In this document: positions 1-4,756 of the stretch, piece by piece
How positions within the stretch are numbered: the first letter of the stretch is position 1
How the letters are laid out: each line of letters starts with the position of its first letter
Source of the DNA: Podarcis pityusensis
Taxonomy: Eukaryota
DNA length: 64,000 bases
NCBI GenBank assembly: GCA_964106645.2
Contig: OZ067049.1
Reading direction: 5' to 3' (one strand)
Program-made: the position numbers

Positions 1-3000
1 GTGTATTCTTATTATCTTTCCTTGCTAATTTTTCTTCCATCCAGTACTTCACATTTTAATCTTAGCTCCAGAACTTCCTTCTGCAGAATAGACACAGTAC
101 CTGCGCAACTGGCCCTTACTTCAACCCACATTAATTAAAACCGGAACATTGAAACCTCGTAACTTGAGAAAGGCATATCAGATATTCCCCAGAATAGAGG
201 ATGGGAGACCTCTGCAGTATCCGGGGAGTTTTCTACCTTTTCTAAACCCACCCAAAGGGGAAGCTTGAAAGACGTCGGTGGTCTGCGGGGGGATGCCGCA
301 AACAGCTTTCTCGCTGATCAAAGCATGCTTCTGAAACTACGCTAACTCTTGATTTTCCTCTCTCTGAAATCTGGCCAGCTTGCACCCTTCACAAAGTAGA
401 TTTCCCACACAGAATTTCATAATGATAGGGGTAATGCCTTGATTTAACTAACAATGAATAGGATTTTCAGTTTTTTATTATGGCCACATGTGGGGAAGGT
501 GGGATAATCACCGCAGCCAGGAGAATAACAGAGAGATTTCTCTCCCCCACCCCACTCCCCACCACCTCACTTGGGGCTCACAGAAAGATGAAGTGCTCTT
601 CACATTAATGATAACAAGCGCTGAGGCAACTGATTCCTTGCCCTTCACAACGAAGGATGACAGCTAAGGAAGCAGCCTCTCTCTTGGGGTGCTGAGTTTC
701 AAATGTTCATGGAGCAGAACAGGTTGTTTTGTAACTTTGAAGGTGATTTACTTATTACTGGCAAAGGCAGAAAATTAAATTACACACTCTAACCAAGAGA
801 TCAATGTTAACTAAATTGTCGAGGCTCTCTTTGCGTATGGCGGTGTTGGCAAATTTTGCTCATTCTGCTTGGGCTATTAGCATTTTCTTTTTACATTCTT
901 CCCTTGTTTCCAAAGACAAGAAGTTGCCTGAGAGGTTGGGTACAAGTTCTGCCTCAGTGATTCATTAAAACGGAGCTGAAGGAACGGAAGTCGGTGCTTT
1001 TCTTAGGGGTGGGGTGGGGAGGGGGAGGGTGCTTTATTGTTCTAAATACTGCTGTGAATGCCAATGATTCGAAGGCTGCGGAAAGCGGCCTTAATGAGCT
1101 TCAGCATTTTAATGTACTGCAGGTTCCCAATTGTACAAATTTAAGAAGCTTAGCAATTCAGTATCTCCTGAATAATAGCATTTATTTTATACTCTGAATA
1201 CACTCGGGGAAGCCTTGATAATATTGCAACTTCTTCGCAGTGTAATAGCTTTACAGGGCCTAATTGACTTGAACAGTGGAATTGGTCCTTTAAAACACAC
1301 ACTCATTCTCGTTCCCTCCGTCTCTTTTGATTAATGAGCCTGGTAATAAATCATTAATCTTTTTGCCTCATAAATTATATGAATAGTGTTTGGGGGGTGG
1401 GAAGGTTTGCTGTGTTCCCCCGCCCCTTTGAGATTGCCTTGCAGGCATGGGGTGGAATTTGGGCACTAGACAATGGCAAAATTCTCACGGATTGCAAGCT
1501 TTCTGAGCTCATAATGGTTTTGTTTCAAAATGTGGAATCTTGAATTCATAGGAAATGACCTGCTTTAATTTTATAAAACATCTAGAGAATACGGCCAAGG
1601 AAGAAATTGTTCACTCTCTCTCTCTCTGAGTAGTCATTTTTACCATATCAAAGCAACAAGTGTCCTTCATTTTGAAGTGCCTTAACAGAATCTCTGAAGG
1701 AGTGAAGGTCATTTGCCAATCACTTAAATTTCATCACTTTTCTTGGTGCTAAATGACAAGTTGTATAGTACAAAAGGCAAGGAAAGGTGTTCACCACTGA
1801 GAAACTGCAGACTGTTATAGGAAATTAGAAAGCAATGTTATGGGGTTGTTGGGTTTTTTTGGGGGGGGGCGGTGCTTGTCACAAAGGTGTACTTCAATAA
1901 CCTATCCCCCAACACCCAGCCACCCCTCTCATTAAATAGTTTTATTATATTGGAACTGGGATGGAGATGGAGGGAAAAGGGGCCAATGTCATATTCCGGA
2001 ATCCTTTGCTGTGTTGAACATTCCTGAGTGTTTCTGTGAAATTTTCTCCTTCAGTTGTTCCAGGCACAAACCTGCTTCTGCTATTCCCTGAAACACAAAA
2101 AAGTAAACAGTCAAAATCAACTTAAACATGTGCACCACAGAGTATATTGCATCTATTGATTTTGAGACATCACTCTGTAATTTCTAGGTTAGATTCATTA
2201 CATGCAGTGCTTTTTTTCTTTAAAAAAATGTTAAAGGGTACTCTCATTTTCCTACTCATGTTGAAATACTGCCCCTCAATGAGGCCAAACTTTGATTCAC
2301 AAAATGTTTAGGGGTATGTGTACCCCTGTGTCCCCCCAGAAAAAATCAATGATTATATGTGAGGCTGCCTTTGAAGACAGTTCAGAAACTGCAGCTAGTG
2401 CAGATTTTAGCAACCAGATTATTGACTGGGACCAGAAGATCTGACCATATCACACCAATTCTGGTGTGGCTGCACCGGCTACCAGGCTTAATTCAAAGTA
2501 CTGGTTTTGGACTTCCGGGTTGGCGCCATCGCCGAATGGCGGACTCCCTCCGAGCTCCGGAGGGAGTCTGCTCGGCAGGGGCTGGGTCCTACCGCACCGG
2601 CGATGCGGGGACCCTTAAAAACCACGGCCACGAGGGCCGTGGACATGGAGACTCGGCTGGCACCGTTAGCGCCCTCCCGACTCGTGAAGGAGCCTTTTTA
2701 AAGGCTACGGATCGGGTGCCGGGGAGAAGCGTGGTGCTTTGAGTCCTCTGCTATCCCTGCCGAGCGCAGCCGCATGCCATTCGGCGGAGAGCGCTGACTT
2801 CTTCCATTGAAAATTCGGACTTCTTAACAACAACCCGTGAGTAATTTGGAAACCGGGTTCAAAAGGAGGAAAAAAAAGAAATTTTTTTTCGGATTGGACA
2901 CGAGCGGGGGGGGATCCAAAAAGGAAGTCAGTCCCCCCCCCTACTGTAAACCTTCCAAAACAAGGACGGGGAAACCAAGGTCCAAAAAGATTTGTATTGC

Positions 3001-4756
3001 TGATAAAAACTAAGAATTCCACGATGGGGAACTATAAGAACTGTGCTGGAGGAAGAATTGAGGGAGAAGAAACGTAACCCCCCCCCCCCTGGGAACCGGG
3101 GTGATTGAAGAGAGAGCCTGGTGAAAAGAGTCGGAGATTTTGACAGCTGTCAAAGTAGCTGTCAAAGTCGGAAAGCAGAGAGGATTTTATTATGAGAACC
3201 TTGCTGGTTAAATTTGTTACAATTTGCTATAACTCGTTAAAACTTGGATACAAAATGGCGAAAACATGGATAACAATCGGACTTTTGGACTAGAGAAAAC
3301 AAAGTTACAACAATCCCCCTAGAGGAGTTTCGGGACATTACAAAGATGGTCGTAAGTGGAAAAATACCATTGGAATTTTACAGGACTGGTTATCTTCTGG
3401 GAAAGCTGCAAAACGGAAATAATATTTTGTCTACAGGGTGTTCAGCTAAAGGAGACAATAGAATTTTCTATTGAAGAAAGGAAGGGACTGAACGCAAGTT
3501 TTTGTTCCTGAATAACAATAATCCCTGCAGAGTTACTAAGCTTCTGAATTAGAACGTTTTAGCAGCGGAACAAGAGGAAATTGGACTACAATTTGGAAAG
3601 AACAATGGGGGGAGTTTTATTAAAGATCTGAAGTTAAGTGTTTTTTTTTAAAAAAAATAACTATAAAAAGAAAAAGCCAGCAAGGAGTTGGGGGAAATAG
3701 GTGATTTATGGACTTTAAGAATTCCAGGCGGATAACATGGTTTGGTGGTCAGGGGGAAATTAAACCGGGGACAGGGGGGGGAGAACTAACATCCAAAGGC
3801 TTGTTAACTTTTTTTTTTTTTTGAACTGGCTCTTTTTCATCTATTATACTTTTTATTTCTTATTTCTGATATTTCTATTGTGTGGGGTGTCCTTATTATT
3901 AAAAAAAGGGAAATTGTGGAATGAAAATGGGGTGGGCCCTGGGAGAGAATTTTTGTCTTTTATTAAGGGTATTGATGAGGAGTGTATAAATTTTAAATTC
4001 GGATAATGGTCTAAACAAATTAAGTTTCAATTAGAACTGAGAGCTTGTGGAGCCAACAATATGAAAGAGGAATATGGTAGGGGTGGGGGAAGGGGGGAGT
4101 CCCGGAAAGTGGATGTATGAAAATAAGGCTTTGAATGTATTTTAATTCTTACTTTCTGTATTTTTGAAAATCTTAATAAATATCATTTGAAAAAAAAAAA
4201 AATCAAAGTACTGGTTTTGAACTGTAAAGCCTTAAGCAGCTCAAGGTCTGCCTCTCCTTACATGAACCAGCCTCCCTTCTCTATCTGCCTCATTGAAAGG
4301 AGGTACAGAGGGTGGCCTTGTGAGAATAGGCTTTTTTAGTGGTGGCCCCCTGCGTGTGGAATGCTTTCCCTGCAGAAACATGCCTGGCACCATCACTGTC
4401 ACTTTTTGATGCCAGACTATGGCATTTCTATTCTGTCAATGACTTCGATAGTTAAACTAGCCTCTACTCCAGGGCTCATTTTTTGTGGGATGGGGCCAGG
4501 GGTCAGCAAACTTTTTCAGCAGGGGGCCAGTCCACCGTCCCTCAGACCTTGTGGGGGGCCGGACTATATTTCGGGGGAAAATATGAATGAATTCCTATGC
4601 CCCACAAATAACCAAAATATGCATTTTAAATAAAAAGACACATTCTACTCATGTAAAAACACGCTGGTTCCCAGACCATCCGCAGGCCGGATTTAGAAGG
4701 CAATTGGACCGGATCTGGCCCTTGGGCCTTAGTTTGCCTACCCATGGGGTAGAACA

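What the first reader, a model, noticed from the sequence alone, without database searches (positions are those of the whole stretch)
2510..4202. 1.7-kb ORF-less retroposon with its own CpG-rich promoter-like head: candidate non-autonomous L1-dependent family
Seen: perfect 17-bp TSD, AATAAA plus A-tail, G-rich 3' tract and no long sense ORF. The 5' ~300 bp retains many CpGs and starts GACTTCCGG (ETS/GABP-like) followed by CGCCAT and ATGGCGG (YY1-like). There are no tRNA A/B boxes. Established: long TSD plus poly(A) is the L1 TPRT signature, and L1 5' UTRs are internal Pol II promoters. Inference: this is a young, apparently full-length Pol II-driven parasite of L1 (5' UTR joined to 3' UTR without ORFs), neither a classical SINE nor a 5'-truncated LINE. 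A retrocopy of a lncRNA is the alternative. It lies sense to RBMS3, so it could supply both an internal promoter and a premature poly(A) site.
Basis: partly seen in the sequence, partly recalled or inferred. Interest (0 to 1): 0.72.

Follow-up and report, generated by a model that had tools for sequence, protein, structure and literature searches.

The report
Young ORF-less retrocopy with structured CpG-rich head
A 1.7-kb piece of non-coding RNA was recently copied back into this reptile-like genome by the LINE-1 type copy-and-paste machinery; it is real and has an unusually folded front end, but whether it belongs to a new family of jumping elements could not be tested here.

Summary
Window 2510-4202 (+) is a 1,693-bp insert flanked by a perfect 17-bp target-site duplication. 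It ends in AATAAA plus A13 and has no ORF longer than 68 aa. There is no Pfam, Rfam or tRNA signal. It starts with the only CCGGAAGT (ETS) site in the 64 kb, followed by YY1-like cores. An uninterrupted paralogous LINE copy in the window carries the 17-mer once, which serves as an empty-site proxy.

New findings:
- The CpG-rich head (CpG o/e 0.97) contains a 282-nt closed RNA domain of near-perfect helices (fold z -6.8).
- The body is C-poor and rich in homopolymers.
- One outside relative exists: a 68-aa ORF with the same start and stop, 88% identical, on a single unnamed 1,745-nt contig.
- An RBMS-family exon lies 11 kb downstream on the same strand.

My reading is an L1-type retrocopy of a complete non-coding Pol II RNA. 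"One-off copy of a host RNA" (0.45) and "member of an amplifying ORF-less family" (0.36) remain nearly tied, because no genome, Dfam or Repbase was on hand. Derivation from L1 UTRs is untested. Interest is moderate.

The parts
2493..2509 (.). left copy of the 17-bp target-site duplication TCAAAGTACTGGTTTTG
2510..4202 (+). the whole insert: 1,680 nt of RNA-derived sequence plus A13
2510..2836 (+). CpG-rich head: GC 60-72 %, 31 CpGs, o/e 0.97
2511..2518 (-). ETS/GABP-type core CCGGAAGT (reads ACTTCCGG on +), at nucleotides 2-9 of the insert; the only one in the window
2525..2542 (+). YY1-like cores GCCAT (2525-2529) and ATGGCGG (2536-2542); a third GCCAT lies at 2776-2780
   Evidence: motif identities are recalled, not tested
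2518..2799 (+). closed, multi-helix RNA domain. Helices: 2518-26/2791-99, 2529-40/2776-87, 2541-52/2558-69, 2570-81/2754-65, 2584-89/2609-14, 2622-29/2635-42, 2691-96/2701-06
2536..2742 (+). 68-aa ORF (stop included). Probably not coding; used as a handle that found the outside relative P0001
2837..2842 (+). GTGAGT, a splice-donor-like hexamer at the head/body boundary, preceded by CCC
   Evidence: about chance frequency, only the position is suggestive
2837..4189 (+). AT-rich, C-poor body (A .34, C .13, G .25, T .28) with no fold signal and no coding signal
2869..2940 (+). two homopolymer hairpins: A8-GAAA-T8 (2869-2890) and G8...C9 (2906-2940)
3641..3657 (+). T9A8 palindrome
3809..3822 (+). 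internal T14 run, complementary to the A tail; no TSD of its own
4076..4099 (+). G-rich tract GGTAGGGGTGGGGGAAGGGGGGAG
4175..4180 (+). AATAAA polyadenylation signal, 9 nt before the tail
4190..4202 (+). A13 tail
4203..4219 (.). right copy of the target-site duplication
2353..2509 (+). old LINE 3' ORF remnant that received the insert (continues after 4203)
15293..15450 (+). exon of an RBMS-family gene (first half of RRM2), bounded by AG and GT; it fixes the host gene's strand

Best explanation
The insert is a very recent retrocopy of one complete, roughly 1.68-kb, polyadenylated, non-coding RNA polymerase II transcript.

Inferred from the anatomy, by analogy with L1: an L1-clade reverse transcriptase/endonuclease acting in trans bound the RNA's poly(A) tail and nicked the bottom strand at 5'-TTTGA/ATT-3' inside an old LINE fragment. 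It reverse-transcribed the RNA to its capped 5' end. A staggered second nick then produced the 17-bp duplication.

The RNA starts 1 nt before an ETS site, carries YY1-like cores at about +16 and +27, and folds its first 290 nt into a closed domain of near-perfect helices. The rest is an unstructured, C-poor, homopolymer-rich body ending in AATAAA.

I take the template to be the product of a host non-coding locus elsewhere in the genome. That locus could be a mono-exonic lncRNA, or a first exon plus an unspliced intron ended at an intronic poly(A) site. I take this copy to be one of few.

Shown: the insertion hallmarks, the absence of coding capacity, the fold signal, and the existence of one outside relative. 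Inferred: L1 as the machinery, Pol II as the polymerase, low copy number, and any promoter activity of the copy.
For: Insertion hallmarks:
- Perfect 17-bp TSD, A13 tail and AATAAA.
- An empty-site proxy from a paralogous LINE copy, with protein-level continuity of the left flank with that LINE's ORF, 26 of 40 identical, E 3e-14.

Not coding:
- Longest ORF is 68 aa.
- 0 Pfam families in 6 of 6 frames read through with X, at E up to 10.
- phmmer of the head ORF against 1.84 billion representatives found no longer protein. There was one 68-aa relative and 4 low-complexity chance hits.

Not a Pol III or small-RNA element:
- 0 tRNAs.
- 0 Rfam matches at gathering score in the window.
- Only far-sub-threshold matches at E up to 10.

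5' completeness: the only CCGGAAGT in 64 kb lies at nucleotides 2-9.

Youth: no mismatch in the TSD, a pure A tail, and head CpG o/e 0.97 inside a background of 0.33.

Low copy number (weak evidence):
- No second copy in the other 62 kb.
- It is the only A-tailed, TSD-flanked insert among 4 A/T runs of 10 or more.
- The one outside relative is a cluster of 1 member on 1 contig.
- In the passages I read, the SINE-LINE partner table lists the Anolis SINEs with Bov-B, LINE 2 and Vingi-2 partners and none with L1 (PMC3747384).
Against: - A randomly met young insert is, a priori, more likely to come from a multi-copy family than from a one-off event. This is size-biased sampling, my own reasoning.
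- The outside relative sits on a contig of 1,745 nt, close to the insert's 1,693 nt. That is what a collapsed repeat or a discrete transcript would give, and it would be a coincidence for a random piece of a single-copy locus.
- An initiation region carried inside the RNA is the design of a self-propagating element.
- A fold z-score of -6.8 with five near-perfect helices is unusual for an ordinary first exon.
- The inferred nick site matches the recalled L1 consensus TTTT/AA at only 3 of 6 positions.
- No parent locus was seen, and copy number was not measured.
Confidence: 0.45

Rival explanations
1. The insert is a member of an amplifying, ORF-less, L1-dependent retroposon family. The head is an internal Pol II promoter (an ETS site at the start and YY1-type cores just downstream) that is copied with every insertion. 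The structured 5' domain helps the RNA compete for L1 proteins.
For: - The ETS site lies at nucleotides 2-9, so the start region travels with the RNA. YY1-like cores lie downstream.
- CpGs are kept at o/e 0.97.
- The strongly structured 282-nt domain persists in 331-, 600- and 990-nt folds.
- A relative with the same ORF start and stop is 88 % identical and sits on a 1,745-nt contig, about the insert's full length.
- Of the 8 inferred differences from that relative, only 2 break a predicted pair.
- The body is AT-rich and A-rich in its first 860 nt, like the L1s of Anolis as described in passages of PMC9099904.
- Size-biased sampling favours families (my reasoning).
Against: - There is no second copy or fragment in the remaining 62 kb.
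- Only one relative was found: one cluster with one member on one contig.
- Two other ORFs of the insert found nothing.
- The pairing pattern is not significant. 4 of 8 changes fall in paired positions against 5.7 expected, binomial P about 0.17 by my arithmetic.
- ETS at the start site with YY1 just downstream is also the ordinary layout of host CpG-island promoters (recalled).
- In the passages I read, no L1-partnered SINE is listed for Anolis, and three searches gave no description of such a family.
Confidence: 0.36
2. This is a narrower version of the family idea. The element is an internally deleted L1, with the L1 5' UTR joined to the L1 3' UTR.
For: - A G-rich tract lies about 100 nt before the tail. 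By recall it resembles the G-rich tract of mammalian L1 3' UTRs.
- YY1-like cores lie near the 5' end, as in human L1 (recalled).
- The sense strand is A-rich and C-poor.
Against: - No remnant of ORF1 or ORF2 was found in any frame.
- There is no similarity to any other sequence in the window.
- No L1 reference was available, so homology is entirely untested.
- The features named above are generic.
Confidence: 0.1
3. The insert is a chimeric retrocopy made by template switching during one L1 reverse-transcription event. A discrete structured small RNA of about 290-330 nt would form the head, joined to the 3' part of an unrelated polyadenylated RNA.
For: - The structured domain is closed on itself and ends where composition changes abruptly.
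- The body shows no fold signal.
Against: - The head matches none of 4,227 Rfam families.
- It starts with Pol II-type promoter motifs rather than known small-RNA sequence.
- The relative's contig is about as long as the whole insert. If that contig covers the whole unit, it argues against a one-off chimera.
Confidence: 0.06
4. The insert is a decayed processed pseudogene of a protein-coding mRNA.
For: - ATG lies inside the YY1-like core at +27 and opens the longest ORF.
- Frame 3 has fewer stops than the other two frames between about 3020 and 3640. This is my own count from the read-through translations: 6 against 12 and 14.
Against: - The insert is too young to have decayed here: the TSD is perfect and the CpGs are intact. 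Yet there is no ORF over 68 aa.
- No Pfam family was found in any frame.
- No longer protein shares the ORF among 1.84 billion representatives.
Confidence: 0.03

Closest known systems
L1-generated processed retrocopies (retropseudogenes) of Pol II transcripts
   Same: - A TSD in the L1 range and a poly(A) tail after AATAAA.
- A 5' end at a transcription start.
- Insertion independent of the template's sequence.
- PMC5753468 states that L1 mobilises other RNAs with 3' poly(A) tails (passages read).
   Different: - The template is non-coding and apparently unspliced.
- No parent gene was identified.
- The 5' domain is far more structured than expected from composition.
SVA and its 5'-transducing subfamily that recruited the first exon of MAST2 (described in PMC5753468; passages read)
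   Same: - An ORF-less, roughly 1-3 kb, Pol II-transcribed, poly(A)-tailed passenger of L1.
- In the MAST2 subfamily the 5' end is a host gene's first exon, the nearest analogue of a CpG-rich head on an L1-dependent element.
   Different: - No hexamer repeat, no Alu-like part, no VNTR and no SINE-R part. No tandem repeat at all lies inside 2510-4202.
- No evidence of amplification.
- The host is not a primate.
- A donor-like GTGAGT is retained rather than spliced away.
HAL1 (half-L1), a non-autonomous L1 derivative encoding only ORF1p (PMC5753468; passages read)
   Same: It would be an L1-dependent derivative that has lost L1 coding capacity, if the L1-derivative reading were right.
   Different: There is no ORF1 or any other L1 coding remnant. 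Homology to L1 is not shown.
SINEs of lizards as listed in PMC3747384: Sauria SINE with Bov-B, Anolis SINE 2 with LINE 2, SINE2-1_Acar with Vingi-2 (table passage)
   Same: It is a non-autonomous retroposon candidate in a genome that looks squamate-like to me (recall).
   Different: - It is 1.7 kb long.
- It has no tRNA-type head.
- Its tail is poly(A), not a LINE-derived 3' end.
- The partner would be L1, which that table does not list for Anolis.

Membership tests
L1-type (TPRT) retrocopy | flanking target-site duplication of about 7-20 bp | tested here: met
   17 of 17 identical. It is the only such case among 4 A/T runs of 10 or more. The 17-mer is single in a paralogous uninterrupted copy.
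L1-type (TPRT) retrocopy | poly(A) tail abutting the 3' TSD, preceded by a polyadenylation signal | tested here: met
   A13 at 4190-4202 and AATAAA at 4175-4180.
L1-type (TPRT) retrocopy | nick site resembling 5'-TTTT/AA-3' on the bottom strand (consensus recalled) | tested here: inconclusive
   The inferred site is 5'-TTGA/AT-3', a match at 3 of 6 positions, read. The specificity of the relevant reptile L1 endonuclease is unknown to me.
L1-type (TPRT) retrocopy | a source locus elsewhere, and intron loss if the source is spliced | not testable with these tools
   Only the window is on hand. The bacterial and archaeal genome collection gave nothing.
   There are 0 further copies in the window. 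One outside relative of the head was found, a cluster of 1 member on 1 contig of 1,745 nt. The genome was not available.
   No L1 was recognised in the window. The only RT hit among 150 of 159 ORFs of 75 aa or more belongs to a GC-rich LINE with an (ATT)n tail. No Dfam or Repbase was available.
   Motifs only. No expression data.
SINE | Pol III head derived from tRNA, 7SL or 5S with A/B boxes; length below about 600 bp | tested here: not met
   0 tRNAs. No Rfam family matched. Length is 1,693 bp.
LINE (full-length or 5'-truncated) | reverse transcriptase, endonuclease or ORF1 coding sequence or remnants | tested here: not met
   0 Pfam families in 6 of 6 read-through frames at E up to 10.
HAL1-type half-L1 | an intact or decayed ORF1 | tested here: not met
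SVA-type composite | 5' hexamer repeats, an Alu-like part, a VNTR and a SINE-R part | tested here: not met
   None of the 39 tandem-repeat rows lies inside 2510-4202. No Alu-head motif occurs in the window.
L1-made chimeric retrocopy (small nuclear RNA joined to an mRNA or L1 3' part) | the 5' part is a known full-length small RNA | tested here: not met
   No Rfam family matched the head even at E up to 10.

The most novel reading that the evidence does not exclude
This would be a reptilian counterpart of SVA: a Pol II-driven, ORF-less, roughly 1.7-kb parasite of L1. It would carry its own ETS/YY1-type start region and a 282-nt closed, near-perfectly paired 5' RNA domain that helps it capture L1 proteins. 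It would be currently active, inserting sense-wise into genes. No L1-partnered non-autonomous element is listed for lizards in the passages I read, and three literature searches surfaced none.
Probability: 0.3. Interest if true: 0.65.

Novelty: new member of a known kind. Interest (0 to 1): 0.4.

Why it matters
If it is only a retrocopy of a host non-coding RNA, it is a clean and very young marker of ongoing L1-type activity in this genome. It is also a candidate presence/absence polymorphism inside an RBMS-family gene, but otherwise ordinary.

If it proves to be a family, it would show that L1 outside mammals also supports long, promoter-carrying, ORF-less passengers. Its structured 5' domain would then be a concrete candidate for how such RNAs overcome L1's preference for its own RNA.

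Either way, the insert places a CpG-rich start region, a donor-like GTGAGT and an AATAAA in the sense strand of an intron, 11 kb upstream of an RRM exon. That could alter the host gene's transcripts.

Tried and rejected
- **Second copy in the window:** none.
- **Genome file:** absent.
- **Rfam:** three runs gave nothing usable.
- **tRNA scan:** nothing.
- **Pfam on the insert's six frames:** nothing.
- **Six-frame Pfam scan of the whole window:** the call was too large to print and was not repeated. Instead, 150 of the 159 N-free stop-to-stop ORFs of 75 aa or more were scanned. This gave one RVT_1 hit, plus one sub-threshold Chp1_domII hit at 23595-23897 that I disregard. The 9 shortest ORFs were left out.
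- **Exact look-up of 10 ORFs of the insert:** 0 of 10 are in the protein collection.
- **Homology searches with the minus-strand 105-aa ORF and the 3' 60-aa ORF:** nothing. So whether the relative's contig covers the body is unknown.
- **Cluster look-up of P0001:** could not be made because the database was switched off.
- **Bacterial and archaeal genome contigs:** 44 pattern matches, none confirmed, and 0 exact matches to a 30-mer.
- **Retroviral leader reading** (R-U5-PBS-splice donor): rejected. No terminal R repeat appears among the direct repeats. I saw only a 7-nt TGGCGCC start of a primer-binding-site-like string (recalled motif).
- **Delta-virus-like or viroid-like reading,** prompted by the 1.68-kb length: rejected. 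Only the first 290 nt fold and there is no antigen-size ORF.
- **Structure conservation against P0001:** the trend is not significant.
- **Literature:** searches gave no description of this element. Only listings were seen, plus passages of four papers.
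Full report
**1. What is there**

Window 2510-4202 (+) is a 1,693-bp insert. The 17-mer TCAAAGTACTGGTTTTG stands at 2493-2509 and again at 4203-4219 without a mismatch. I scanned every A or T run of 10 or more on both strands for a repeat of 11 nt or more of the sequence next to it within 8 kb. Of 4 runs, only this one has such a repeat.

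The window offers an independent check, because the insert landed in an old LINE 3' fragment:
- The left flank translates to a peptide that is 26 of 40 identical to the ORF of a better-preserved copy at 62320-63141, E 3e-14.
- When both flanks are aligned to that copy, the two 17-mers fall on the same 17 columns (63083-63099) and the flanks run on colinearly.
- That copy therefore behaves as an empty site.

At the 3' end, AATAAA (4175-4180) is followed by 9 nt and A13.

**2. What it is not**

- **Not coding.** The longest ATG ORF under the standard code is 68 aa. All six frames, read through with X at stops, match no Pfam family even at E 10.
- **No known RNA family or tRNA.** No Rfam family reaches its gathering score anywhere in the window. 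More permissive runs on 2300-4400 and on the head alone list only far-sub-threshold chance matches. ARAGORN finds no tRNA.
- **No tandem repeat.** None lies inside the insert.
- **Conclusion.** It is not a SINE, not a truncated LINE, not HAL1-like and not SVA-like in composition.

**3. Anatomy**

*Head (2510-2836).*
- GC is 60-72 %, with 31 CpGs and o/e 0.97. The rest of the window has o/e 0.33.
- The insert begins G-ACTTCCGG. CCGGAAGT occurs once in the 64 kb, exactly here.
- GCCAT (2525) and ATGGCGG (2536) follow.
- Reading these as ETS/GABP and YY1 sites, and their typical position at and just downstream of start sites, is recall and was not tested.

*Head fold (new).*
- 2510-2840 folds at -172.7 kcal/mol, against -133.8 +/- 5.7 for 100 dinucleotide shuffles. 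That is z -6.8, and 0 shuffles fold as well.
- The reverse strand gives z -7.6, as expected for inverted repeats.
- In 150-nt windows only 2435-2660 stands out (z -5.6 and -6.2). The body scatters around 0.
- The same helices return when 600 or 990 nt are folded: 2518-26/2791-99, 2529-40/2776-87, hairpin 2541-52/2558-69, 2570-81/2754-65, 2622-29/2635-42 and others.
- Together they form a closed 282-nt domain. Two of the long-range helices contain 11-bp perfect inverted repeats.

*Head/body boundary.* GTGAGT sits at 2837-2842, preceded by CCC. By my estimate this hexamer class is expected about once or twice in 1.7 kb, so only its position is suggestive.

*Body (2837-4189).*
- Composition is A .34, C .13, G .25, T .28.
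- Homopolymers of 7 or more occur at 6.5 per kb, against 1.03 per kb in the rest of the window.
- Several come as complementary neighbours: A8-GAAA-T8, G8...C9 and T9A8. A T14 run matches the tail. I have no explanation for this pattern.
- A G-rich tract lies at 4076-4099.

**4. Relatives elsewhere**

- None of 10 ORFs of the insert is in the protein collection by exact look-up. The source genome is therefore evidently not represented there.
- phmmer of the head frame (2512-2739) against 1.84 billion representatives gave 5 hits at E 0.001 or better.
  - Four are repeat-rich proteins matching low-complexity sequence.
  - One, P0001, has 68 aa, E 2e-29, and is 60 of 68 identical, with the same start and stop as the 68-aa ORF.
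- In the 5.8-billion-cluster collection P0001 is the only hit. It is a cluster of one member on one contig of 1,745 nt, with no name. I cite it by its handle only.
- A look-up of its cluster could not be made.
- The minus-strand 105-aa ORF and a 3' ORF found nothing, so it is unknown whether that contig covers the body.
- Each of the 8 amino-acid differences is explained by one base change. Four fall in unpaired positions, 2 keep the predicted pair, and 2 break pairs at the foot of the first hairpin. With 71.6 % of positions paired this is a trend, not a result (P about 0.17, my arithmetic).
- The contig length, close to the insert's, suggests a discrete unit, either a transcript or a collapsed repeat. 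It does not say which.
The bacterial and archaeal contigs gave nothing.

**5. Surroundings**

- A motif scan of the six frames found an exon on the + strand at 15293-15450, bounded by AG and GT.
- Its 52 codons are 48 of 52 identical to the RRM2 part of RBMS1 in PDB entry 6m75 and match Pfam RRM_1 at 5.3e-10.
- The insert is thus sense to an RBMS-family gene and 11.1 kb upstream of this exon.
- That the gene is RBMS3 rests on my recall of the four differing residues.
- Only this one exon was found.
- I do not take the window for human. No Alu-head motif occurs in 64 kb. A LINE with a 274-aa open RT frame and an (ATT)n tail is present. By recall that LINE's 3' end is typical of squamates. No tool established the taxon.
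- The two N runs (14173-14455 and 16579-16706) were left as they are.

**6. Mechanism and rivals**

The triad of a long TSD, a poly(A) tail after AATAAA and a 5' end at a start-site motif is the signature of L1-type target-primed reverse transcription acting on a polyadenylated Pol II RNA. This is established knowledge, and PMC5753468 states that L1 mobilises other poly(A) RNAs (passages). The inferred nick site, 5'-TTGA/AT-3', matches the recalled consensus at 3 of 6 positions. I put about 0.9 on this much.

The open question is the template.

*For a one-off or low-copy retrocopy of a host non-coding locus (0.45):*
- There is no other copy in the window.
- Only one singleton relative was found.
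- No L1-partnered non-autonomous element is listed for lizards in what I read.
- The start-site layout is also that of ordinary CpG-island promoters.

*For an amplifying family (0.36, of which an L1-UTR derivative is about 0.1):*
- Size-biased sampling favours families.
- The start region is carried within the RNA.
- The 5' domain is extraordinarily structured.
- The relative's contig has unit length.

A template-switch chimera (0.06) and a decayed coding pseudogene (0.03) are less likely, for the reasons given under rivals.

**7. Comparison and novelty**

The insert works like a processed retrocopy. The nearest analogue among families is SVA, in particular the subfamily that acquired the first exon of MAST2 (PMC5753468). 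However, none of SVA's defining parts is present. It fails the defining tests for SINE, LINE, HAL1 and SVA. The defining tests for "a family" could not be run.

I rate it a new member of a known kind, with moderate interest (0.4). The structured head and the possibility of a reptilian L1 passenger family are what would raise the interest.

**Papers**

Only passages found by term search were read in PMC3747384, PMC3787681, PMC5753468 and PMC9099904. For all other papers only the search listing was seen. No supplements were opened.

Noticed in passing
window 15293-15450 (+): Exon of an RBMS-family gene (first half of RRM2) with AG and GT boundaries. It is 48 of 52 residues identical to RBMS1 in PDB 6m75. 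No other exon of the gene was picked up by the short motif scan.
   Followed up: partly
window 62320-63487 (+): 3' part of a GC-rich LINE (GC about 54 %). It has a 274-aa open frame with an RVT_1 hit, one in-frame stop near the end and an (ATT)n tail at about 63455-63487. Diverged copies of its 3' end lie at about 2353-4650 (the one that received the insert) and about 11870-12520.
   Followed up: partly
window 12007-12345: A roughly 340-bp element with terminal inverted repeats (CAGTGGTACCTCGCAAGA ... TCTTGCGAGGCACCACTG) and repeated TCGCAAGAC words, inserted into another copy of the LINE 3' end. It looks like a MITE and explains a local CpG peak (20 CpGs in 327 bp).
   Followed up: no
window 4497-4700 and 14456-14732: An interspersed repeat shared at 85-87 % identity. 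The second copy abuts an N run and contains a 71-bp unit repeated 1.9 times (14560-14693).
   Followed up: no
window 2869-2940, 3078-3089, 3641-3657, 3774-3781, 3809-3822: Inside the insert, homopolymer runs of 7 or more are six times denser than elsewhere and tend to come as complementary pairs: A8/T8, G8/C9, T9A8, C12 with G8 at a distance, and T14 with the A tail. Unexplained.
   Followed up: partly
window 4758-4833: (CTT)n running into (CCT)n, a microsatellite about 550 bp downstream of the insert.
   Followed up: no
window 14173-14455 and 16579-16706: Two N runs flank the region just upstream and downstream of the RBMS exon. They were left untouched.
   Followed up: no
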